From the NCBI GenBank assembly GCA_031701365.1, contig GCA_031701365.1_4118.1: DNA of 64,000 nt. One strand, given 5' to 3'. How positions within the stretch are numbered: the first letter of the stretch is position 1; every line of letters begins with the position of its first letter. This stretch comes from Escherichia coli (GTDB lineage: Bacteria > Pseudomonadota > Gammaproteobacteria > Enterobacterales > Enterobacteriaceae). This document shows, piece after piece, positions 7,171 to 63,581 of the stretch. Under the pieces are notes generated by a model. The model did no database searches and was not told the origin of the DNA. It was given only the letters and a program-made list of their open reading frames with translations. The translations under genes and the position numbers were made by a program.

Positions 7171-7285
7171 ATATACCAGAAATGGTTAACATATCATGTT
7201 ACTTTCCTCCCTTACATAATAATGATGCGTTATTATATTTTCATTTTGTTCTTATTCCCCTTTTGGTACAAAATCATTTTAGTAC

Positions 7286-7310
7286 TGCCCCGTTCTTCGG
7301 GGCATTTTTA
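7286..7310 (+). terminator. rho-independent terminator (TGCCCCG-TTCTT-CGGGGCA + T-run)
   Basis: GC stem + TTTTTATT; lies inside track ORF 7182..7727, so that ORF start is trimmed. Confidence 0.6.
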
Positions 7311-7331
7311 TTATCTAAAATTCGAGTATAT

Positions 7332-7727
7332 ATGAAAAATAATATTGGAACTTCAATAATTAAACCACTTTCTTATTACCTTGAAAAATTTAGAAGCACA
7401 AATGGTAAAAAATTTAATAATATATTTCAGTTCTCTCACAAAGAATATATTACAATTGATCATTTTTCAAAGAAACTAATGTATGTAAATGATAATATTA
7501 ATATTATTAGATTATCTTTCGATATTGAGTTAGATAAATTAACATTTACTGAATACATTAATAAAAAAACTTCTTTTTTATGTCAATACAATAGGAAAGT
7601 ATATAGTAATATTTCTATGTATCTAAATGATGAATATCACTTTCAACAATCTACAATAGAAGAAGTATTATTCAGTACTGAAGAATTAAAAGAACTATAT
7701 TACTGGTATAATTATTTTACATCTTGA
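7332..7727 (+). CDS. FFQ-motif family protein
   Basis: ATG 7332 downstream of terminator; C-terminal 'DEYHFQQSTIEEV'. Confidence 0.55.
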   Translation: MKNNIGTSIIKPLSYYLEKFRSTNGKKFNNIFQFSHKEYITIDHFSKKLMYVNDNINIIRLSFDIELDKLTFTEYINKKTSFLCQYNRKVYSNISMYLNDEYHFQQSTIEEVLFSTEELKELYYWYNYFTS

Positions 7728-55489: not shown

Positions 55490-55518
55490 TTGACACCGTT
55501 CCCATTTAACAGTATTAT
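55490..55518 (+). promoter_or_regulatory. sigma70-type promoter (TTGACA-17-TATTAT) with conserved leader
   Basis: Leader 'tgtacaccaagtaatgaggaat' nearly identical to 55859-55880. Confidence 0.5.
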
Positions 55519-55555
55519 GTATGTACACCAAGTAATGAGGAATAGGAGTGAAACA

Positions 55556-55816
55556 ATGTTAACACCTGAACAGCAAGAAGCCCAAATCGCTAAACACAGC
55601 CTTGACTTTCCTAACGGTATGACAGTTAAAGAACTGAAAGCACTCATTGCTGATTGGCCTGAAACTAACCAATACGGTGAAGATACTAAAGTACTGATCA
55701 GCACTCAAGATGGTATTGATTGCACAGTGCATTCATCTTGGTGCAGTGAAGTTCGTTTCAATGCAAACGATGAACTGGTATATGATCTTAGTTTGGATGT
55801 AGAAGACCGCAATTAA
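55556..55816 (+). CDS. hypothetical protein
   Basis: ATG 55556 after GAGGAATAGGAG. Confidence 0.5.
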   Translation: MLTPEQQEAQIAKHSLDFPNGMTVKELKALIADWPETNQYGEDTKVLISTQDGIDCTVHSSWCSEVRFNANDELVYDLSLDVEDRN

Positions 55817-55887
55817 GACAAATAAAAGGATTGACACTAGTTCTATAGTATTGTAACATGTGTACACCAAATAATGAGGAATCTGAA

Positions 55888-56247
55888 ATGGCATCTTTAA
55901 CTGAAATCACTGAACTGAATCCACTGGCAATTAGTACTGTTCAACGCACAAAGACGTTTTACTTTCGTCCAGTCGATGGTTGGAAGCGTGGTGAGAATGG
56001 CGACTATCGTGTTCTGGAAGATAATCTCGTTGAACGTGTGAATTCAGAACTTAATGTTTATGAAGGTGTTACGGTTGTACGTTCACATTCTCGTTATTTC
56101 GAATACTACATTGAGTCTTCATCGGTAAATGAAAACCGTTCATTTTCTGTTGACAATACTGATGCACTGCGTAATGCAGTATCTATTTTGTGCAATATTG
56201 CAGAAGAAATGGGTTTAACTATCGTAACGATTGGTGAGTTAGCATGA
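55888..56247 (+). CDS. hypothetical protein
   Basis: ATG 55888 after duplicated leader/RBS cassette. Confidence 0.5.
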   Translation: MASLTEITELNPLAISTVQRTKTFYFRPVDGWKRGENGDYRVLEDNLVERVNSELNVYEGVTVVRSHSRYFEYYIESSSVNENRSFSVDNTDALRNAVSILCNIAEEMGLTIVTIGELA

Positions 56248-56441
56248 TTAAAACTTTTATTCTTACAATGGTATTTGGTTCTTATGGTTATGGTGGTGGT
56301 GTGGCGACCGTTGAGTATCCAGTATACGAAGATTGCAAAGCTGCTGCTGAAGTGTTTGTAAAAACAACTAAAGATTTGGCTACCGTTACTGATGCCAAAG
56401 CGTGGTGTACAACTAAAAATACACCAGAAACTAAGAAGTAA
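56244..56441 (+). CDS. small secreted/membrane protein
   Basis: 65 aa; hydrophobic N-terminus then Gly-rich. Confidence 0.45.
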   Translation: MIKTFILTMVFGSYGYGGGVATVEYPVYEDCKAAAEVFVKTTKDLATVTDAKAWCTTKNTPETKK

Positions 56442-56448
56442 AAAATAA

Positions 56449-56482
56449 AGGGTTGACAGTAGTCATCCCTTTTTGCTATAAT
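56449..56482 (+). promoter_or_regulatory. PeSL-like cassette (AGGGTTGAC-AGTA-GTCATCCCT + T-run; TTGACA-18-TATAAT)
   Basis: Directly upstream of denV; shares 'ctttttgctataat(c/t)atttcatc' with copies 7 and 8. Confidence 0.65.
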
Positions 56483-56510
56483 CATTTCATCGAAACGAGA
56501 GGATGAAAAC

Positions 56511-56948
56511 ATGACACGCATTAACTTAGTACACGTTAAAGAACTTGCTGACCAACATCTGATGGCTGAATACCGTGAACTCCCACGTGTGTTTGGTGCT
56601 GTACAAAAACATGTTCAAGCAGGTAAACGAGTACGTGATTTCAAAATTAACAGTACTTATCTGTTAGGTTCAGGTCATGTAACATTCTTCTATAACAAGT
56701 TATTGTACTTACAGAAGCGTCATATTGATATTGTTAACGAATGTTTGCGTCGTGGTATGAAGATTCAAAACATTGAAGTAAACGACATTAGCAGCTTCCC
56801 TGCGGAGTTTTGCCAGGACTATGTGCCATCTGATTCAGAGATTAAAATGTCTCGTGACCGTTTGATTGAGAAGCTCCAGATGAAGCCTACGTGGTATAAG
56901 TTTACTGATGTTGAGTTACCTGAGTACTATACCGAGATGATTAAGTAA
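56511..56948 (+). CDS. denV: endonuclease V, pyrimidine-dimer DNA glycosylase (T4 DenV homolog)
   Basis: 145 aa; 'MTRINL...[33 protein letters not shown]...GHVTFFY' matches the T4 endonuclease V sequence as I recall it, including N-terminal Thr2 and catalytic-region residues. Confidence 0.9.
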
Positions 56949-56961
56949 ATAGAGATTAAAA

Positions 56962-57177
56962 ATGATACTTGACACTTCTAGATACAAGTTTTCAAACAAC
57001 CAGAACACAAATAGAACACACACCATGAAATGGTGGTTGAGACATCGTGATAAGGTTTTGAACACACACACCGTATCAGAACTTATCTCGGCAATTATAG
57101 AATTAAGCGATGATGATTGTGTTGAAAACAATATATATAATTTATGGAATGATTATATTAACATAACTAAGGGTTGA
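56962..57177 (+). CDS. hypothetical protein
   Basis: 71 aa. Confidence 0.45.
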   Translation: MILDTSRYKFSNNQNTNRTHTMKWWLRHRDKVLNTHTVSELISAIIELSDDDCVENNIYNLWNDYINITKG

Positions 57178-57203
57178 CTTCGGTCAGCCCTTTTTGCTAT
57201 AAT
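57171..57203 (+). promoter_or_regulatory. PeSL-like cassette (GGGTTGAC-TTCG-GTCAGCCC + T5; TTGACT-18-TATAAT)
   Basis: ~45-bp identical to copy at 59198. Confidence 0.7.
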
Positions 57204-57229
57204 TATTTCATCAACACAAGAGGTAACAA

Positions 57230-57466
57230 ATGAAACTATCTTTTATACGATTAGCTGAATTCTTCGGTACTGATATTATTACTTTACAACAAATTGCAGA
57301 CAATACTTCATTAAGTACACAAGAAGTACTTGACTTAGATGTAATTAAGTGTGATAATACTTCCATCGATTTCAAAGAAGGTCTTGTCGAAAAAGATAAG
57401 ATTCAGGCTAAGATTAATGGTGCTGGACGGGTTCAGTACTGGAAAGGAGTTTTGAGTAATGTATAA
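57230..57466 (+). CDS. hypothetical protein
   Basis: 78 aa. Confidence 0.5.
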   Translation: MKLSFIRLAEFFGTDIITLQQIADNTSLSTQEVLDLDVIKCDNTSIDFKEGLVEKDKIQAKINGAGRVQYWKGVLSNV

Positions 57467-58835
57467 CAATGAACATAAAAAATTAATTGAAAATTTTGAT
57501 GGTTATGTATATATAAAGTCAGAAAAACTTAATAACAACTGTTATATACATTATAATCATCCTGAACGTTATCTTCCAGTCAAAATTGAATTATCTGATC
57601 TTGTTAAAAGTGTTAAAAAAAATAAAAATCAACTAGCTCCACTACGAACAAAAGAAGAAATAGTTGAAATTGTTAGAAATAAATTTATTAATAAAAAACA
57701 ATATTCAATAAAAAAAATTGATTATAATAAAAGAAGTTCTGAGTGTATTGTTCATTATGATGACAATTCTGGAATTACATATACAGTTTCATTACAAACT
57801 TTAATATATAAAAATTGGGAACCAGAGACAGCTAAGCCAAGAAAGACATTGAATATGCATATTGAATATGCAAAGAAAAAATTACATGAATTAGGTCATG
57901 AATTTATAAAATTTAATAGTGATAAAATTGATAAAAAAACATATGTTATTTACAAACATAGCTCAAGAATATTACCATGTGAAATACAATATTACGAATT
58001 GCGTAGATGTGATGATAAATTAATACCTCATTTGACTATAGATGAAATAAAAGCAAAAGTTGAGCATGAAGCATCAATACAAAATGTAATAATAACAGAT
58101 ATTATAGAATGTATAAATTTATCATATTCTAATATAAAATATAAATTACCTGAAAATAATGATATAGGTGGTGAAGTACAATATATAAGTATGATTAAGG
58201 ATGGATTTTCGTTTAGACATAAAAATAATATCAAAACTGATAATTTTTATTATAATTATGGTGTGGAGTTTTGTAAAAAAAATGGTTTGGTATTCATAAA
58301 AGTGATTGAGTATAATAAAAAAATGACAAAATATCATTTTAAAATGCTAAATGGTGAAGATTGGAAACCAACTTATAGCTCTTTGGCACATAGTGGTTCT
58401 TTATGTAAAGGTGGATACCAAAATAATAATGCTGCCCGTGTATATGTGAATAATGACCATTGTGGTGAAGCTGACAATGCTGGGAAAACCATGCAAAAAA
58501 AATTCAATAATAGATTAACGGTTAGAAATAATTCATTTTATAAAAATTATGGTATTAAAAATTTTTGGAAAAATGAATTATTGATTTTATTTAATAATAA
58601 AAATGGTGGTAAATTAGCTACTGAATTGGAAAAAATAATTCATACAACTGCATTATGTGGAAGACCACATGGAAGAACCGGTTATTATGAAAAAGGCGAT
58701 GGGTGCACAGAAACATTCAACAACATCCATCGACCTAAAGTTAACGAAGCCATTAAAAAGTTCTTAGCAGAACATGAAGGTGAGTACATTATCGAACGTG
58801 ATATCAATGGTATTTTTGGTGAAGTAATTTTGTAA
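57459..58835 (+). CDS. AT-rich Lys/Asn/Tyr-rich protein with internal ~40-aa repeats (possible acquired/mobile gene; nuclease role unproven)
   Basis: 458 aa; four repeats of 'x-Y-x-I-K-...-Y-x-I-H-Y'-like module; Cys/His-containing C-terminal region; local composition markedly more AT-rich than flanks. Confidence 0.5.
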   Translation: MYNNEHKKLIENFDGYVYIKSEKLNNNCYIHYNHPERYLPVKIELSDLVKSVKKNKNQLAPLRTKEEIVEIVRNKFINKKQYSIKKIDYNKRSSECIVHYDDNSGITYTVSLQTLIYKNWEPETAKPRKTLNMHIEYAKKKLHELGHEFIKFNSDKIDKKTYVIYKHSSRILPCEIQYYELRRCDDKLIPHLTIDEIKAKVEHEASIQNVIITDIIECINLSYSNIKYKLPENNDIGGEVQYISMIKDGFSFRHKNNIKTDNFYYNYGVEFCKKNGLVFIKVIEYNKKMTKYHFKMLNGEDWKPTYSSLAHSGSLCKGGYQNNNAARVYVNNDHCGEADNAGKTMQKKFNNRLTVRNNSFYKNYGIKNFWKNELLILFNNKNGGKLATELEKIIHTTALCGRPHGRTGYYEKGDGCTETFNNIHRPKVNEAIKKFLAEHEGEYIIERDINGIFGEVIL

Positions 58836-58855
58836 AACAAAAGAGGTTAATTAAA

Positions 58856-59182
58856 ATGAAAAAGTTAATGTTAGTTATGTTAATGTGTTTATCAACAACA
58901 GTGAATGCAAAAACTGAAGCATCAACAACATGTAAATCCACAAAAACTGACACTATCTACAATTTGTATTTGGATGTAACAACACAAACAGCAAAAATAG
59001 ATGGAAAGAAGTTTATGTTTGAAAGTCAAGAAGTATTTAAAGATGGAAGTGGTTCGTATACTATTTTTTCAAATGATAAATTGAATCAAAAATTAAAAGT
59101 TTTTGTTATTAAACCTAATAAGATAAAATATATTATTACCTATAATGGTAAAAATATTGATATGGGTAATTGTGTGTATTAA
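58856..59182 (+). CDS. secreted two-cysteine protein (family member 3)
   Basis: 'MKKLMLVMLMCLSTTVNA|KTE'; 'KIDGKKFMFESQEV'; C-terminal 'GNCVY'. Confidence 0.55.
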   Translation: MKKLMLVMLMCLSTTVNAKTEASTTCKSTKTDTIYNLYLDVTTQTAKIDGKKFMFESQEVFKDGSGSYTIFSNDKLNQKLKVFVIKPNKIKYIITYNGKNIDMGNCVY

Positions 59183-59197
59183 ATATGTTTATAAAAA

Positions 59198-59230
59198 GGG
59201 TTGACTTCGGTCAGCCCTTTTTGCTATAAT
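59198..59230 (+). promoter_or_regulatory. PeSL-like cassette (GGGTTGAC-TTCG-GTCAGCCC + T5; TTGACT-18-TATAAT)
   Basis: Identical to 57171 copy through 'gctataattatttcatcaac'. Confidence 0.7.
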
Positions 59231-59258
59231 TATTTCATCAACTGATGAGGATAACGAA

Positions 59259-60029
59259 ATGACCAGAGAAGCACGCAGCATTCAAATCCAGAAAAACTTC
59301 AACTCCATGATGGTTGCTCTTGAGTGTTTGCTCGATGATAGCAGTACTGTAAAAAGTATGGTTGTCAGTGGTGCTCCTGGTGTTGGTAAGACTTACACCT
59401 TGTCCCAACGTCTCCAGAAGGCTCATGACGCAGCAGAATGGAACGTAGCTACTATCAGTGGTAAGATGACTACACTGGCTCTGTACGAAGTTCTGTACAA
59501 GAATCGTCACAGCACCAACGTATTAGTACTTGATGATATGGATAGCATCTTTGAATCAGAAGATGGTATGAACCTACTCAAAGCTGTTTTGGATAGTGGT
59601 AAGCGTACTGTATCTTATATGACTAGCTCTAAGTACTTGAGCACTAACGGCATTCCTAATAGCTTTGATTTTAATGGTCGCATCGTATTCATTACTAACA
59701 AAGATTTAGCGTTAGATGCTAAAGCTAAAACTAAAATGTCTGCTCATTATGCTGCTCTTATGTCTCGTTCTGTGTACGTGGATTTACAGATTCAGACTAA
59801 AAGTGATATCATGATTCATATTGAAAATGTAATGACTAAGACTAATATCCTTGCATCTAAAGGTGTTAACAGTAACGGTAGTAAAGCAATTCTGAACTGG
59901 ATGTTAAAACATGAAGATAATCTTCGTGCACCATCCCTGCGTATGCCTTTGTTGATTTCAGCAGTATATAACAACAATCCGTATGATTGGGAAGAACAAT
60001 GTGAAAACTTGTTCCTTGAGAAAATCTAA
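59259..60029 (+). CDS. P-loop NTPase (AAA-like ATPase)
   Basis: Walker A 'SGAPGVGKT', Walker B 'VLVLDDMD'. Confidence 0.65.
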   Translation: MTREARSIQIQKNFNSMMVALECLLDDSSTVKSMVVSGAPGVGKTYTLSQRLQKAHDAAEWNVATISGKMTTLALYEVLYKNRHSTNVLVLDDMDSIFESEDGMNLLKAVLDSGKRTVSYMTSSKYLSTNGIPNSFDFNGRIVFITNKDLALDAKAKTKMSAHYAALMSRSVYVDLQIQTKSDIMIHIENVMTKTNILASKGVNSNGSKAILNWMLKHEDNLRAPSLRMPLLISAVYNNNPYDWEEQCENLFLEKI

Positions 60030-60038
60030 TTACATATG

Positions 60039-60070
60039 TTGACAGTACTACCATCGTGTAGTACTATAAT
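60039..60070 (+). promoter_or_regulatory. AGTACT-containing promoter (TTGACA ... TACTATAAT)
   Basis: 'gttgacagtactaccatcgtgtagtactataatggg'; exact -10 ambiguous. Confidence 0.45.
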
Positions 60071-60096
60071 GGGAGTATAATCTGCGGAGAAGAAAT

Positions 60097-60438
60097 ATGC
60101 TTGAGTTTTTTAATTCAGATACAATGCTTGGTATCACGCTAATTTACATGTTTGTATTTTTGTGTTATCATTCAATTGTAATTAGTCTGTGGTATTTTAA
60201 AAGGAAAATTGTTTTTAAATTGTATTCGGATGATAATGTAGTCTTAGTTTTATATAGTATTATCCAAGGTGGGTTTATTTTATTTGGTGTGATGACATAT
60301 GCGATTTACATGTTACAAATTGATAATACACCACACATTACACAATATCTTGTGTTTTCAGGTCTAATCGTGTGGTTATTGGTGTGTACTATGTATTTTA
60401 TTATTAAAGCTCGTGATAACTTTAAATGGGGATTCTAA
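60097..60438 (+). CDS. small 3-TM membrane protein family, member D
   Basis: 'MLEFFNSDTMLGITLIYMFVFLCYH...WYFKRKIVFKLY'. Confidence 0.6.
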   Translation: MLEFFNSDTMLGITLIYMFVFLCYHSIVISLWYFKRKIVFKLYSDDNVVLVLYSIIQGGFILFGVMTYAIYMLQIDNTPHITQYLVFSGLIVWLLVCTMYFIIKARDNFKWGF

Positions 60439-60776
60439 TGTTAGAATTTTTTAAATCAGATACAATGATTAGTATTACTTTGATTTATCTTTTTGGTTTT
60501 TTCTTTTATCATGCACTGGTTGTAGTACTATGGTATTTTAAAAAGAAAATTGTTTTTAAACTGTATCCAGTGAGGAATTCATCACTAGTTCTTTACACAC
60601 TTGTTCAAGGTTTGTTTGCAATTGTTGGTCTTATGGCACACTTAATTTATTGTGCTAATCCTCACTTGAACTCAATCTCACAATATATTGTATTCTTTGG
60701 GTTGTTCATTTGGTTAGTTGTATACTTAATCCATCTCATTATTCATGGTAGAGATAAAATTCGCGGAGACTTCTAA
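60438..60776 (+). CDS. small 3-TM membrane protein family, member E
   Basis: 'MLEFFKSDTMISITLIYLFGFFFYH...WYFKKKIVFKLY'; close paralog of D. Confidence 0.6.
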   Translation: MLEFFKSDTMISITLIYLFGFFFYHALVVVLWYFKKKIVFKLYPVRNSSLVLYTLVQGLFAIVGLMAHLIYCANPHLNSISQYIVFFGLFIWLVVYLIHLIIHGRDKIRGDF

Positions 60777-61123
60777 TGTTTGAAGCTTATCTTGAGTTTT
60801 TAAGGAGTAGTCCAGTTGCACATTCACTTGCAGGGATTATTCTAACAACTTATGTATCATTTTGGGTAGTTATGTTTCTAGGATGGTATTTTAAACGACA
60901 ATTCTATAAACGTAATGGTGAAGATTTTATGAATTCTGCCATTAATCAATCGTTGTTTGCATCAACATTGATTGCATGTATTGTAGCAACACTCACAGGA
61001 AAGGTACTACCAGCTTTTTCCGCAGTTTACGGCACACTTGGGATGATATGTTTAACTTTTATATTGACCATTAAAATTTGTTGTGTTATGATTGAACTTC
61101 GAAATAAGATACCGGAGGAATGA
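60776..61123 (+). CDS. small 3-TM membrane protein family, member F
   Basis: 'WYFKRQFYKRN'; C-terminal 'RNKIPEE'. Confidence 0.6.
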   Translation: MFEAYLEFLRSSPVAHSLAGIILTTYVSFWVVMFLGWYFKRQFYKRNGEDFMNSAINQSLFASTLIACIVATLTGKVLPAFSAVYGTLGMICLTFILTIKICCVMIELRNKIPEE

Positions 61124-61458
61124 TGGAGTACTTTATTGATTTACTTCCGTGGTATATGAAAGTTAGTACCATGTACTATATTATTAGTGCTGGATTCTAC
61201 TTTCTGATGTGGTTCTTTAAACGACCAATTTCAGTATTCATCGCTGATAACATGCTGCAATTAAAATTACATGTATGGTTCTTGGCTTCTATGATTATGC
61301 CAACTATTCACTACTCGCTAATTAGTAGAGGGTTTCGTTCTAATGGTGAACCTGTAGTGCTTGTATTCTATTGGGTTTCAACTATAGTATATATTGGACT
61401 TTTTTTGTTGCCAGTGGTTCATAAATTACGTTCTAAAGTTCCTGATGCGAGGTACTAA
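61120..61458 (+). CDS. small 3-TM membrane protein family, member G
   Basis: 'WFFKRPISVF'; C-terminal 'RSKVPDARY'. Confidence 0.6.
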   Translation: MMEYFIDLLPWYMKVSTMYYIISAGFYFLMWFFKRPISVFIADNMLQLKLHVWFLASMIMPTIHYSLISRGFRSNGEPVVLVFYWVSTIVYIGLFLLPVVHKLRSKVPDARY

Positions 61459-61772
61459 TGGATATAGTAACATTGATTTACACGTTGTATTCATTCTATT
61501 TCATTATGTGTTGGGTTGGATTTTTATTTGTACTCAAGATGTTTGATTATGTTGAAAAACAGATAAAAGAATTTTGTATTCCTTTTATCGGTTCAACCAT
61601 TATTAGTGTTTCTTGTGTGTATTTTTTGGTTTTTGATCCACCAGATAACACTGCAATGATTGACTTGATGTTACTACCAACAACTGTTACTTTTTTATGT
61701 AGTCTGATGCCGCCGATTAGCCGTGGACTAACAGAATTTAGACGCAATCAAAAGCGTAAACGAGGGATGTAA
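61458..61772 (+). CDS. small membrane protein family, member H
   Basis: 104 aa; basic C-terminal tail. Confidence 0.55.
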   Translation: MDIVTLIYTLYSFYFIMCWVGFLFVLKMFDYVEKQIKEFCIPFIGSTIISVSCVYFLVFDPPDNTAMIDLMLLPTTVTFLCSLMPPISRGLTEFRRNQKRKRGM

Positions 61773-62140
61773 TGGAAATTGCTCTTATTATCTTAACTGC
61801 TATGTTGTTTATTAGTACTGTGGTTATAATTGGTAAATTCTTTTGTGTATCATTTTTAGAAACGGTATACGATGAAATTGCTGATGATTATGAACTACAA
61901 GCCGGATTTTTCATTACGTATTGGCTTAGTTTATTTTGTCTAGTCATTGCTTGGATTTTACATATCTTTAAATGGGGTATGGTAGACGGTGATCCTATTA
62001 TGGCAATTATTGTTCTAGTGTTTGGTATCCTTGGTGGTGCAGTGCATAATCTAATGGTTATCTGGCAAACTGTTCAATATGTTTTGGTTCCCTATTTCGA
62101 AAAGATGCACAGTACAATTAAAAAACGTAAACGAGGTTAG
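61772..62140 (+). CDS. small membrane protein family, member I
   Basis: 122 aa; basic tail 'KKRKRG'. Confidence 0.55.
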   Translation: MEIALIILTAMLFISTVVIIGKFFCVSFLETVYDEIADDYELQAGFFITYWLSLFCLVIAWILHIFKWGMVDGDPIMAIIVLVFGILGGAVHNLMVIWQTVQYVLVPYFEKMHSTIKKRKRG

Positions 62141-62141
62141 T

Positions 62142-62504
62142 ATGAACGGGATAGAATTATCTTTCGTTGGTCAATTACTAGTAATGGCGTATACATTTAT
62201 ATTCTCACTGAATGCATTCGTGTGCATTGGGAAGTACTTCCATAAGCGACCATTATCAAATATATATGATGTAATCCAAAAGAGATATAGTCCAGCATAT
62301 ACTGTGTTGGGTACAGTATTCAATTTTGGTTTTATTGTATTAATAATTGGACTGTTCACATCATCTTTGAATACAATAACCTTCGGTCTTATGATATGTT
62401 CATTGGTATTAGCAGTAATTATATGTTGTTTAGTACTGCACCTTGTGGTACTATTGTATATAAAGATCTCTGAAATCCACCAACGTTTGGGTATGAGGAA
62501 ATAA
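62142..62504 (+). CDS. small membrane protein family, member J
   Basis: ATG 62142; 'GKYFHKRP' after TM1. Confidence 0.55.
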   Translation: MNGIELSFVGQLLVMAYTFIFSLNAFVCIGKYFHKRPLSNIYDVIQKRYSPAYTVLGTVFNFGFIVLIIGLFTSSLNTITFGLMICSLVLAVIICCLVLHLVVLLYIKISEIHQRLGMRK

Positions 62505-62505
62505 T

Positions 62506-62877
62506 ATGAGTTACCGTGAGATATTTTCCATTATTTCAATTATTATGTTCAGTACTGGAACACTGGTATGGTTATTATACTTCTTCTGTATTAATCCAGT
62601 GTATAATATGTTATGTAATATTAAATCAAGTGCCGGATATATCACTTTTATGGTCTTTATGGGATATTATTGTCTAAGCATTTTAGGTGTTGTTTTGGTT
62701 GTTATATTTGATGTGGGACCAAATAGTGATGGTATGGAAATACATGAATTAATAACCATGTTTGGATGTATGATACCAACAGCACTACTGTTTGTAGCTA
62801 CTGGTAGTGGATTGATAAAATTATATAATTATTTAAAATCCATTCATAATTCCATTCATAATAAGCGTATGTCATAA
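62506..62877 (+). CDS. small membrane protein family, member K
   Basis: 123 aa; 3 TM; basic tail. Confidence 0.55.
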   Translation: MSYREIFSIISIIMFSTGTLVWLLYFFCINPVYNMLCNIKSSAGYITFMVFMGYYCLSILGVVLVVIFDVGPNSDGMEIHELITMFGCMIPTALLFVATGSGLIKLYNYLKSIHNSIHNKRMS

Positions 62878-62918: not shown

Positions 62919-63581
62919 ATGATGAAATCAAAATTAGGTTTGTTTTATAAAAACTATTTTGTTAAACAACGTAAATTTATAAAAAAATATTTCTCTGGCG
63001 AGAAGTCTAGTCCTATAATCTTTAAAAGACCAAGTTATAATACTTACTTAGCTGGTGCTAAACAGTCTAAGAAATTTATTACTCTTTTACATAAAAACAA
63101 AATTAAAGCTTCTTATGTTGAAACGAGAAGAAACTCATCAATAACTCCTGGTGATTTTATTGAGTACGGATGTTTCAATATTAAGTACAATGATAATACA
63201 TACTTTATGGATATTGATTGTAATACATCCAATCTTTTTAACATTGTAGTAAATCCATTAAAACAATATAATGTTTATGGTGATTCTATTATCAAATTAA
63301 TCAAAAACAAAGATAGCTTTGATTTTGAAATAAATGTTTTAGATGATAATTTTGACGAAGTACCAGTAAACCCTGAAATCTGTGATATTTTAAACAGTTT
63401 AAAAGGTAGTACCTACAATATATCATCTGATTTAATGTTTCAGTACTCATTAATCCATAAAGATATTGAAAAGTATATTGAATGCTCCAAAATTTTGAAT
63501 TATCTTTACGATGAATTTAAAAAGAGTTCTAAAATAACCGCATACACTTTGTACAATATTCCTAAAATGGTGAATCTTTGA
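62919..63581 (+). CDS. hypothetical protein (AT-rich)
   Basis: 220 aa; preceded by AGTACT palindromic hairpin 62883-62910. Confidence 0.5.
   Translation: MMKSKLGLFYKNYFVKQRKFIKKYFSGEKSSPIIFKRPSYNTYLAGAKQSKKFITLLHKNKIKASYVETRRNSSITPGDFIEYGCFNIKYNDNTYFMDIDCNTSNLFNIVVNPLKQYNVYGDSIIKLIKNKDSFDFEINVLDDNFDEVPVNPEICDILNSLKGSTYNISSDLMFQYSLIHKDIEKYIECSKILNYLYDEFKKSSKITAYTLYNIPKMVNL

What the first reader, a model, noticed from the sequence alone, without database searches (positions are those of the whole stretch)
57459..58835. Compositionally distinct AT-rich gene with internal repeats inserted between denV and the ATPase gene
The 458-aa ORF is markedly more A/T- and Lys/Asn/Tyr-rich than its neighbours and contains four ~40-aa repeats (Y-x-Y-I-K...Y-I-H-Y-like) plus a Cys/His-bearing C-terminal region. 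It is bracketed by two identical PeSL-like cassettes (57171, 59198). This pattern fits a horizontally acquired or mobile gene, such as a free-standing homing-endonuclease-like or DNA-binding protein. I could not identify a definitive catalytic motif by eye.
Basis: inference. Interest (0 to 1): 0.45.

Follow-up and report, generated by a model that had tools for sequence, protein, structure and literature searches.

The report
Divergent T5orf172-type homing endonuclease gene
The AT-rich 458-codon gene is a free-standing, selfish "homing endonuclease"-type gene of a jumbo E. coli phage: a very divergent GIY-YIG/T5orf172 nuclease domain fused to an unclassified array of repeats, in a slot that holds a different nuclease gene, or none, in each related phage. 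It is an ordinary kind of element in an unusually diverged form.

Summary
The ORF is real: 57459-58835, + strand, 458 aa. It is compositionally aberrant, with GC 25% and GC3 14%, against 39% and 37-39% in denV and the ATPase gene. The window comes from an Asteriusvirus (PBECO4/121Q-like) jumbo coliphage, not a T4-like phage.

- **N-terminal half.** It holds three statistically supported ~65-aa cysteine-free repeats, not four ~40-aa ones. They are unrelated to the zinc fingers usual in this class.
- **Locus.** Related phages carry nothing here, orf78 alone, or orf78 plus one of at least five different endonuclease genes. All but 121Q's start at or within 1 nt of the same ATG.
- **Flanking cassettes.** The identical cassettes are terminator/promoter units. 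They are common in this genome and bracket three genes.

Verdict: a new variant of a known kind. Nuclease activity and homing are inferred, not shown.

The parts
57459..58835 (+). 458-aa free-standing homing-endonuclease-like gene: N-terminal repeat array plus a C-terminal T5orf172-like GIY-YIG domain.
   Evidence: ORF. phrog_681 'endonuclease', E 2e-12. A 99% identical copy lies on two metagenome contigs.
57459..57656 (+). Repeat R1 (aa 1-66).
   Evidence: R1 against R3: local score 69, z=7.7, 0 of 300 shuffles reach it.
57657..57848 (+). Repeat R2 (aa 67-130).
   Evidence: An HMM built without R2 finds it over the full model length, iE 2.5e-6. An HMM of the SHEFM2K repeats hits aa 74-122, iE 5.8e-5.
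57855..58043 (+). Repeat R3 (aa 133-195).
58044..58397 (+). aa 196-313: linker, or two degenerate repeat-like units.
   Evidence: Not significant with either repeat HMM (iE 0.2-0.8; 0.17). No similarity to DUF723-type fingers.
58398..58832 (+). C-terminal T5orf172/MUG113-like GIY-YIG nuclease domain (aa 314-458). Family-invariant residues: Y329, G342, R352, N357, E391, H395, D414-G415, E418-T419.
57463..58559 (+). Lineage-specific AT-rich segment (GC ~23%), absent from PBECO4 and 121Q. It starts directly after the shared ATG and ends inside the nuclease domain.
   Evidence: Left junction alignment. Sliding identity to PBECO4: ~48% up to 58559, then 63-90%, then ~100% from 58739.
57230..57466 (+). 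orf78 (phrog_34150, function unknown). Its last codons carry the GGAG and the ATG used by the endonuclease gene (8-nt overlap).
   Evidence: It is ~94-97% conserved in relatives whatever gene follows.
58856..59182 (+). orf108, an AT-rich small ORF with a signal-peptide-like N-terminus. It is cargo of the same transcription unit.
   Evidence: The DNA is ~100% identical in PBECO4 and L012.
57169..57215 (+). Upstream PeSL-like cassette: a 10-bp stem with a UUCG loop and a T-run, overlapping a sigma-70-type promoter (TTGACT, 18 nt, TG-n-TATAAT).
   Evidence: dG -15.7, z -4.7.
59196..59242 (+). Downstream PeSL-like cassette, identical over 47 nt. It is the predicted terminator of the orf78/endonuclease/orf108 unit and the promoter of the ATPase gene.
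   Evidence: dG -19.5, z -6.0.
56511..56948 (+). denV (pyrimidine-dimer glycosylase), the conserved left neighbour.
   Evidence: Pfam PF03013, E 7e-15. phrog_1183.
59259..60029 (+). AAA-type ATPase gene (phrog_1250), the conserved right neighbour.

Best explanation
The gene encodes a free-standing homing-endonuclease-type protein of the T5orf172 branch of the GIY-YIG nucleases. It sits in a recombination hotspot of an Asteriusvirus jumbo coliphage.

Proposed mechanism (steps marked shown or inferred):
1. A sigma-70-type early promoter inside the cassette at 57174-57203 transcribes orf78, the endonuclease gene and orf108 as one unit, ending at the stem-loop at 59196-59222. The signals are shown in the sequence; their use is inferred.
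2. The endonuclease ATG overlaps the orf78 stop codon, and its GGAG lies inside orf78. Translation is therefore probably coupled to orf78 and kept low. The overlap is shown; the coupling is inferred.
3. The N-terminal array of at least three ~65-aa Lys-rich repeats reads an extended DNA target in 'beads-on-a-string' fashion (inferred by analogy).
4. The C-terminal GIY-YIG-like domain, with Y329, R352 and E391, cuts the DNA. Homology and fold are shown; activity is inferred.
5. In mixed infections with a relative lacking the gene, the cut is made at or near the empty allele ...GGAGTTTTAAGTAA^AAAAAGGGTTGAC.... Repair from the endonuclease-carrying genome copies the gene and its flanks (inferred).
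6. Recombination among paralogous endonuclease genes and among the repeated cassettes has swapped modules. In this lineage the DNA-binding array and the first half of the nuclease domain were replaced by an AT-rich segment from an unknown donor. The mosaic is shown; its history is inferred.
For: Nuclease domain:
- A model of aa 300-458 built with 8 homologs has pLDDT 74.7 and pTM 0.72, with beta-beta-alpha-beta-alpha order.
- The top Foldseek PDB hit is Slx1, probability 0.98.
- BFVD gives 48 hits at E<=1e-3. They include 'T5 Orf172' proteins, CapR-domain proteins, a phage UB homing endonuclease and ICP1 ORF88.
- ICP1 ORF88 is Odn, a purified T5orf172 nuclease whose E180A mutant is inactive (PMC8263062).
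- Profile-profile comparison of the family with the phAPEC6-type domain: 80%, E 1.4e-5. A member of that type passes Pfam's cutoffs for MUG113 (26.2 bits) and T5orf172 (21.8 bits).
- Against six T5orf172-type endonuclease C-termini (ICP1 gp130, phi92 gp222, T5.141, CBB, Vibrio 1.066, Phi1): 97.1%, E 7.7e-11. With the phAPEC6-type sequences added: 98.1%, E 9.6e-14.
- Y329, R352 and E391 are invariant in all 8 family members.

Architecture:
- The nearest relatives carry CapR or DUF723/DUF4379 fingers in front of the same C-terminal domain.
- That is the published architecture of T5orf172 homing endonuclease genes (PMC10448857).

Mobility:
- Flanks are 90-98% identical, but the slot differs among relatives.
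- EC.P1 and SP27 lack both orf78 and the endonuclease gene.
- Salmonella phage SD-2_S15 has orf78 followed directly by the cassette.
- PBECO4, 121Q, phAPEC6, SHEFM2K, JP4/G17 and Turkey5 each carry a different endonuclease gene.
- In E9.1 the gene is split into 449 + 193 aa.
- Homology stops at or within 1 nt of the shared ATG, except in 121Q. There is an identity gradient on the 3' side.
- No intron or Rfam family is present.
- GC3 of 14% marks foreign or fast-evolving DNA.
Against: - No Pfam, NCBIfam or PDB sequence hit for this protein itself. The assignment rests on profile-profile and predicted-structure comparison.
- The MSA behind the model has only 8 sequences. The loop at aa 402-415 is of low confidence.
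- The conserved Lys of the 'D-K-x-G' strand, equivalent to L-K-x-G in T5orf172 proteins, is Asn340 here and in the Turkey5 homolog. A Lys follows the Gly in just these two, which may or may not compensate.
- DNA binding by the repeats is pure analogy. They have no detectable similarity to CapR/DUF723 fingers, and the full-length single-sequence model was useless (pLDDT 37).
- No cleavage site, target or super-Mendelian transmission has been shown.
- Presence/absence could also arise from cassette-mediated recombination alone.
Confidence: 0.65

Rival explanations
1. A co-opted T5orf172 nuclease or DNA-binding protein used in conflicts, rather than for its own spread. It could be an Odn-like nuclease aimed at a satellite or a competing phage, or a CapR-like repressor derived from a homing endonuclease.
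For: The T5orf172 class has documented co-opted members: Odn cleaves the PLE origin and CapR represses capsid genes (PMC8263062; PMC10448857). The model matches ICP1 ORF88/Odn. The gene lies in an early, sigma-70-promoted unit together with a small secreted-looking ORF.
Against: The N-terminus is not a RepA_N or other recognisable satellite-derived domain. The slot shows the turnover, decay (the split gene in E9.1) and empty alleles typical of selfish homing genes. Arg and Glu are retained, so a pure repressor is less likely.
Confidence: 0.15
2. A catalytically dead or decaying endonuclease remnant that no longer homes. Its patchy distribution results only from homologous recombination between the repeated terminator/promoter cassettes and between paralogous genes.
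For: Lys to Asn at the beta-2 strand motif. The domain is too divergent for Pfam. Identical 47-nt cassettes flank the unit, and a single cassette remains in SP27 and EC.P1, as described for PeSL-mediated shuffling in T4-like phages (PMC2839356 and PMC4122927, found). Between the two known copies, 4 of 6 differing codons are non-synonymous.
Against: The ORF is intact over 458 codons in an AT-rich sequence where stop codons arise easily. The same intact ORF occurs on independent contigs. Tyr, Arg, Glu and the DG-x-TET motif are invariant. The orf78-only allele lacks exactly the endonuclease gene plus orf108, and that deletion is not bounded by two cassettes.
Confidence: 0.15
3. Not a nuclease at all: a lineage-specific accessory protein whose resemblance to GIY-YIG proteins is a modelling or alignment artefact.
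Against: Three independent methods converge on the same family. The hhalign E-values of 1e-11 to 1e-13 are far beyond chance. The relatives have the canonical finger-plus-T5orf172 architecture.
Confidence: 0.05

Closest known systems
T5orf172-family putative homing endonuclease genes of phages (ICP1 gp130/tcgB, gp165, gp174; phi92 gp222; T5.141), as described by Barth, Dunham & Seed 2023 (PMC10448857)
   Same: A C-terminal T5orf172-type GIY-YIG domain (hhalign 97-98%). An N-terminal array of repeated small modules. Free-standing, next to conserved genes. Variable presence among isolates. Domain swapping between paralogs.
   Different: The domain is below every Pfam threshold. Only six 50%-identity clusters exist among 1.84 billion proteins. 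The repeats are cysteine-free ~65-aa units, not CapR/DUF723/DUF4379 zinc fingers. Asn replaces the strand-2 Lys.
ICP1 Odn (Gp88), an origin-directed T5orf172 nuclease (PMC8263062)
   Same: The predicted fold matches (BFVD hit F1D1B0, E 5e-4). Catalytic Arg and Glu are retained. It is a chimera of a swapped DNA-binding part and a T5orf172 domain.
   Different: Odn uses a RepA_N domain stolen from its satellite target and acts as anti-satellite defence. Here the binding part is an unclassified repeat array and the target is unknown.
PBECO4 gp306 and 121Q gp221 (phrog_681 'endonuclease'), at the same locus in sister phages
   Same: Same position after orf78. The same C-terminal domain (53-64% aa identity), with a last ~40-aa tail that is nearly identical in PBECO4. 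The same downstream small ORF and cassette.
   Different: Their N-termini are DUF723/DUF4379 or CapR zinc fingers. The window's first ~365 codons are unrelated AT-rich sequence.
T4 Seg proteins and I-TevI (classical GIY-YIG homing endonucleases)
   Same: GIY-YIG superfamily fold. Free-standing or mobile. Modular structure of nuclease plus DNA-binding region. Intronless homing with co-conversion of flanks is the proposed mode.
PeSL cassettes of T4-like phages (Arbiol et al. 2010, PMC2839356; Comeau et al. 2014, PMC4122927)
   Same: A composite stem-loop terminator overlapping an early sigma-70 promoter. Many near-identical copies. They bracket segments that are present or absent between close relatives.
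   Different: Found here in an Asteriusvirus jumbo phage, not a T4-like phage. The endonuclease insertion itself is bounded by orf78 on the left, not by a cassette.

Membership tests
T5orf172 (PF10544) / MUG113 (PF13455), GIY-YIG superfamily | Match to the Pfam family HMM at or above the gathering score | tested here: not met
   No GIY-YIG-clan family was reported even at E<=10, for the protein or for any of the 8 family members.
T5orf172 (PF10544) / MUG113 (PF13455), GIY-YIG superfamily | Profile-level homology to domains of accepted members | tested here: met
   hhalign against six T5orf172-type endonuclease C-termini gives 97.1%, E 7.7e-11, and 98.1%, E 9.6e-14 with the phAPEC6-type sequences added. 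Three of those proteins, or their relative P0011, pass Pfam cutoffs for T5orf172 or MUG113.
T5orf172 (PF10544) / MUG113 (PF13455), GIY-YIG superfamily | GIY-YIG core fold (three-stranded sheet with flanking helices, beta-beta-alpha-beta-alpha) | tested here: met
T5orf172 (PF10544) / MUG113 (PF13455), GIY-YIG superfamily | Catalytic Arg (helix 1) and Glu (helix after strand 3) conserved | tested here: met
   R352 and E391 are invariant in 8 of 8 family members. They align with the conserved R and E columns of T5orf172 domains. Equivalence to Odn E180 is inferred from the alignment.
T5orf172 (PF10544) / MUG113 (PF13455), GIY-YIG superfamily | Strand-2 'K-x-G' motif (the counterpart of the YIG tyrosine) | tested here: not met
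   The window has D-N340-A-G-K-T, where 6 of 8 relatives have D-K-x-G and T5orf172 proteins have L-K-x-G.
T5orf172 (PF10544) / MUG113 (PF13455), GIY-YIG superfamily | Metal-dependent DNA cleavage | not testable with these tools
   Needs purified protein. Shown only for ICP1 Odn (PMC8263062).
Free-standing homing endonuclease gene | Presence/absence polymorphism at one locus among close relatives, with empty alleles | tested here: met
   EC.P1 and SP27 are empty. SD-2_S15 has orf78 only. At least five other occupants are seen.
Free-standing homing endonuclease gene | Not within an intron or intein; own ORF between conserved genes | tested here: met
   No intron family within 55500-61000. The ORF lies between orf78/denV and the ATPase gene.
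Free-standing homing endonuclease gene | Cleaves the gene-less allele and is inherited above the input ratio in crosses | not testable with these tools
   Requires nuclease assays and mixed infections.
T5orf172 homing endonucleases with CapR/DUF723/DUF4379 zinc-finger arrays | At least one CapR, DUF723 or DUF4379 treble-clef finger (87% of the class, PMC10448857) | tested here: not met
   No such Pfam hit in the window protein. There is no CxxC pair. hhalign and HMM against DUF723-type repeats give E 0.1-0.5. The feature is met in PBECO4 and 121Q.
PeSL (promoter-early stem-loop) cassettes | Stem-loop terminator overlapping a sigma-70-like promoter, in many near-identical copies | tested here: met
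   (13 matches, 0 expected).
PeSL (promoter-early stem-loop) cassettes | Occurrence in T4-like myoviruses, where the family was defined | tested here: not met
   The window matches Asteriusvirus genomes. Hence 'PeSL-like', working the same way but in another lineage.
HNH / His-Cys box / zinc-finger nuclease (suggested by the 'Cys/His-bearing' C-terminus) | beta-beta-alpha-metal motif, or a Cys/His metal cluster | tested here: not met
   No HNH-type Pfam hit. The fold and profile matches are GIY-YIG. Only one Cys and one His are invariant.

The most novel reading that the evidence does not exclude
Two linked readings are not excluded.

1. The ~65-aa cysteine-free repeats may be a previously undescribed, exchangeable DNA-recognition module. 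They occur in 3-5 copies here, 5 in the Turkey5 homolog, and there are weakly related copies in the SHEFM2K protein, which has a non-homologous nuclease domain. Phage nucleases of different catalytic families would then draw on this module.

2. The 3' end of orf78 (GGAG-N9-ATG) may act as a universal docking and expression platform. At least five different endonuclease genes, with at least two unrelated C-terminal domain types, have been spliced onto it at or within 1 nt of the same start codon. orf78 would then be a dedicated landing pad or partner for selfish nucleases.
Probability: 0.25. Interest if true: 0.55.

Novelty: new variant of a known kind. Interest (0 to 1): 0.35.

Why it matters
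The finding gives a function to a family of orphan genes in jumbo coliphages used for phage therapy. These genes are annotated 'hypothetical' or just 'endonuclease'.

- **Reach of the T5orf172 class.** The class extends well below current Pfam sensitivity. Counts of selfish nucleases in phage genomes are therefore underestimates.
- **A natural series of alleles.** The locus occurs empty, with orf78 only, with several different nucleases, and with a split gene. That makes it a convenient system for testing homing, marker exclusion and domain swapping in a jumbo phage.
- **The repeat array.** If it really reads DNA, it would be a new modular recognition unit.

None of this overturns current understanding. 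It fits the picture drawn for ICP1 and T4.

Tried and rejected
- **Direct sequence searches of the protein.** Pfam, NCBIfam and PDB phmmer/hmmsearch gave only noise.
- **Full-length single-sequence AF2 model.** pLDDT 37, unusable.
- **Word-indexed homolog search with the C-terminal profile.** It returned only one known relative.
- **Exhaustive representative search.** Only 6 clusters, so the family cannot be enlarged.
- **tblastn with divergent members.** It found the same 9 phage records.
- **afdb50 fold library.** Not available.
- **hhalign against I-TevI alone.** Not significant (E 0.12). Membership in classical GIY-YIG by sequence is therefore not claimed.
- **Repeats as degenerate DUF723/DUF4379/CapR fingers.** Not supported.
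- **Zinc-finger or HNH reading of the C-terminal Cys/His.** Rejected on fold and profile evidence.
- **Intron-encoded endonuclease.** Rejected.
- **orf78 as an obligatory partner of this protein type.** Rejected. The full-length relative in Turkey5 has no orf78 upstream, and orf78 occurs alone in SD-2_S15.
- **JP4/SHEFM2K C-terminal domain.** By eye it looks like a Vsr/DUF559-type PD-(D/E)xK domain (E-Y-D-G-x2-H). That could not be confirmed, so it is reported only as 'non-homologous, phrog_9084 homing endonuclease'.
- **Selection analysis.** Impossible with only 6 differing codons.
Full report
**What is there**

The ORF at 57459-58835 (+) exists and encodes 458 aa. Its GC content is 25.4% and its GC3 is 14.4%. 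The flanking denV (56511-56948) and AAA-type ATPase gene (59259-60029) have 38.8% GC and 37-39% GC3. Among 111 long ORFs of the window (mean GC 0.329, sd 0.036) it has the second-lowest GC3.

The AT-rich part does not cover the whole ORF. The last 185 nt have 37% GC.

The window is not from a T4-like phage. The flanks match Asteriusvirus jumbo coliphages (PBECO4, 121Q, JP4, G17, phAPEC6 and others) at 90-98% identity. No record covers more than 49% of 56400-60100.

**Cassettes**

The sequence AAGGGTTGACTTCGGTCAGCCCTTTTTGCTATAATTATTTCATCAAC occurs identically at 57169-57215 and 59196-59242. It has three features:
- It folds into a 10-14-bp stem with a UUCG loop followed by a U-run (dG -15.7 and -19.5 kcal/mol; z -4.7 and -6.0).
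- It contains TTGACT, an 18-nt spacer, and a TG-extended TATAAT.
- Variants occur at 9 plus-strand sites between 45 and 59 kb, where none is expected by chance.

It therefore works like the PeSL terminator/promoter cassettes of T4-like phages (PMC2839356 and PMC4122927, found), but in another phage lineage. The two copies bracket a three-gene unit of orf78, the 458-aa gene and orf108, not the 458-aa gene alone.

**N-terminal half**

- R1 (aa 1-66) and R3 (aa 133-195) align with a score of 69 against a shuffle mean of 27 (z 7.7).
- An HMM built from R1, R3 and five repeats of the Turkey5 homolog finds R2 (aa 67-130) over the full model length, iE 2.5e-6.
- The unit is about 63-66 aa: a helix followed by strands, with the pattern [FY]-x-H-P-x-R-x-L-P.
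- It has no CxxC pairs and no similarity to DUF723-type fingers.
- A weak but in-register similarity exists to five repeats of the SHEFM2K protein at the same locus (hhalign E 1.9e-4, reversed control 0.66; SHEFM2K-repeat HMM on window aa 74-122, iE 5.8e-5).

**C-terminal domain**

Direct searches fail. PHROGs places the protein in phrog_681 'endonuclease', E 2e-12, and the C-terminal 159 aa alone at E 5e-11. Homologs of aa 300-458 are very rare: six 50%-identity clusters among 1.84 billion proteins. All phage hits are Asteriusviruses.

The relatives carry CapR (PF21817) or DUF723/DUF4379 fingers in front of the same domain. An eight-sequence alignment shows these invariant residues: Y329, G342, R352, N357, S359, E391, H395, C400-G401, D414-G415, E418-T419.

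Three independent lines assign the domain.

1. *Predicted fold.* The AF2 model from that alignment (pLDDT 74.7, pTM 0.72) has strand-strand-helix-strand-helix order.
   - Foldseek agrees, with Slx1 at probability 0.98.
2. *Profile homology.* The endonuclease at the same locus in phAPEC6/E9.1 has a C-terminal domain that aligns with this family at hhalign 80%, E 1.4e-5.
   - Its relative P0011 passes Pfam's own cutoffs for MUG113 (26.2 against 22.3 bits) and T5orf172 (21.8 against 20).
   - P0011 is in turn 36% identical to ICP1 tcgB/gp130 and similar to phi92 gp222 and T5.141. ICP1 gp130 and phi92 gp222 score as CapR plus T5orf172 in Pfam; T5.141 scores only CapR and DUF4379.
   - The window family aligned against the C-termini of six such endonucleases gives 97.1%, E 7.7e-11, and 98.1%, E 9.6e-14 with the phAPEC6-type sequences added.
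3. *Viral structure library.* Foldseek against BFVD gives 48 hits at E<=1e-3. They include 'T5 Orf172' proteins, CapR-domain proteins, a phage UB homing endonuclease and ICP1 ORF88.

ICP1 ORF88 is Odn, a T5orf172 protein shown to cleave DNA in vitro. Its E180A mutant is inactive (PMC8263062). T5orf172 is treated as a GIY-YIG subfamily, and its phage members as putative homing endonucleases with repeated N-terminal finger domains ('beads on a string'), in PMC10448857.

One caveat applies. The Lys of the strand-2 motif (D-K-x-G here, L-K-x-G in T5orf172 proteins) is Asn340 in the window and in the Turkey5 homolog. In these two proteins only, a Lys follows the Gly.

**The locus in relatives**

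| Phage or contig | Content of the slot |
|---|---|
| EC.P1 | denV, cassette, ATPase; nothing in between |
| SP27 | denV, two small genes, cassette, ATPase; no orf78 and no endonuclease gene |
| Salmonella phage SD-2_S15 | orf78 followed at once by the cassette...GGAGTTTTAAGTAA\|AAAAAGGGTTGAC... |
| PBECO4 | orf78 + 379-aa protein (DUF723/DUF4379 fingers + this domain) + small ORF |
| 121Q | orf78 + 487-aa protein (CapR + this domain) |
| phAPEC6 | orf78 + 628-aa protein (three DUF723-like fingers + MUG113-like domain) |
| E9.1 | the phAPEC6 gene broken into 449 + 193 aa |
| JP4, G17, SHEFM2K | orf78 + 372- or 474-aa proteins with a non-homologous C-terminal domain (phrog_9084 'homing endonuclease') |
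| Turkey5 | no orf78; a 527-aa protein, 26% identical over the full length, with five repeats |
| Metagenome contig L012 | the same orf78/458/108 unit (98.6% nt identity over the unit) behind a different upstream gene set |

*Junctions.*
- Homology among PBECO4, JP4, phAPEC6, E9.1, SHEFM2K and the window runs through orf78 and stops at or within 1 nt of the ATG that overlaps the orf78 stop codon. 121Q diverges earlier and starts its gene further downstream.
- On the 3' side, identity to PBECO4 is about 48% up to 58559, 63-90% up to 58739, and about 100% from there to 59262.
- The lineage-specific AT-rich segment is therefore 57463 to about 58559. It comprises the repeat array and the first half of the nuclease domain.
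- No intron or other Rfam family is present.

**Interpretation**

*Shown.* Gene structure, composition, the repeats, the fold prediction and homology of the nuclease domain, the polymorphic and mosaic locus, and the regulatory signals.

*Inferred.*
- The protein binds DNA through the repeat array.
- It cuts DNA with Y329, R352 and E391.
- The cut falls in or near gene-less alleles, and repair copies the gene (intronless homing).
- The cassettes and the paralogous genes provide the homology for module exchange.
- Expression is early and translationally coupled to orf78.

I put about 0.9 on the domain assignment and about 0.6 on an active, homing nuclease. That gives 0.65 overall for the best explanation. 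The rivals are:

| Rival | Confidence |
|---|---|
| Co-opted conflict nuclease or repressor (Odn/CapR-like) | 0.15 |
| Inactive remnant moved only by cassette recombination | 0.15 |
| Artefactual resemblance | 0.05 |

**Comparison and novelty**

The closest known kind is the T5orf172 homing-endonuclease class of ICP1, T5, phi92 and related phages. The window protein works like these and shares their fold and profile-level homology. It fails three membership features: the Pfam thresholds, the zinc-finger array, and the strand-2 Lys. I therefore file it as a new variant of a known kind.

Its description of the repeats and of the role of the cassettes needed correction. Interest is moderate to low (0.35): the class and its behaviour are published. 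What is new is the extreme divergence, the unclassified repeat module, and the start-codon-precise swapping of different nuclease genes behind orf78.

Noticed in passing
window 57440-57466; L001, L003, L006, L007, L008 at the orf78 3' end: At least five different endonuclease genes in sister phages start at or within 1 nt of the same ATG, which overlaps the orf78 stop codon, and they use the same GGAG inside orf78 (121Q's gene starts further downstream). orf78 (phrog_34150, no known domain, HTH-like by eye) acts as a fixed 5' junction. It occurs alone in Salmonella phage SD-2_S15, where it reads on into the cassette (88 aa).
   Followed up: partly
L008 2382-3731 and 3764-4345 (Escherichia phage E9.1): The phAPEC6-type 628-aa endonuclease gene is split into 449-aa and 193-aa ORFs. 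It looks like a decaying homing endonuclease gene.
   Followed up: partly
window 58836-59195: orf108 (58856-59182, GC 25%) starts with a signal-peptide-like MKKLMLVMLMCLSTTVNA. The spacer TAAAACAAAAGAGGTTAA after the endonuclease stop codon resembles the first bases of a cassette (TAAAACAAAAGGGTTGAC in JP4/G17). orf108 may therefore be a secondary insertion into a cassette.
   Followed up: partly
window 58805-58835 vs L003, L007, L009 endonuclease 3' ends: Endonucleases with non-homologous nuclease domains end with the same tail, ...(F/Y)GEV(I/Q)(L/I): DNA TGGTGAAGTA...TAAAACAAAAG. This is either a 3' recombination junction inside the last codons or a shared functional peptide.
   Followed up: no
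L001 1799-1900 vs L003 3244-3345: PBECO4 gp306 (T5orf172-like C-terminus) and JP4 gp203 (a different C-terminal domain) share their first ~30 residues (MFEQYY-NEDGEKVYF-EE...). The mosaicism therefore extends to the extreme N-terminus.
   Followed up: no
window 56931-57151 (71-aa ORF 56962-57177): The segment between denV and the first flanking cassette has no match in any of the sister loci compared. It is a second lineage-specific insert, with no family hit.
   Followed up: partly
L017 283-1257 (Pectobacterium phage CBB): In the distantly related jumbo phage CBB, a DUF4379-finger protein annotated 'endonuclease', with a P0011-like (T5orf172-type) C-terminus by tblastn (no T5orf172 Pfam hit), also lies just upstream of denV. 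The denV neighbourhood may be a recurrent landing zone.
   Followed up: no
window 60097-62877: A tandem array of eight paralogous ~104-141-aa ORFs encoding predicted multi-pass membrane proteins lies directly downstream of the ATPase gene. The copy number differs among relatives.
   Followed up: no
window 62919-63581 and 7182-7727: Two further strongly AT-rich ORFs: 220 aa in a region of GC ~0.26, and 181 aa with GC 0.233. They might be other acquired genes. Neither was analysed.
   Followed up: no
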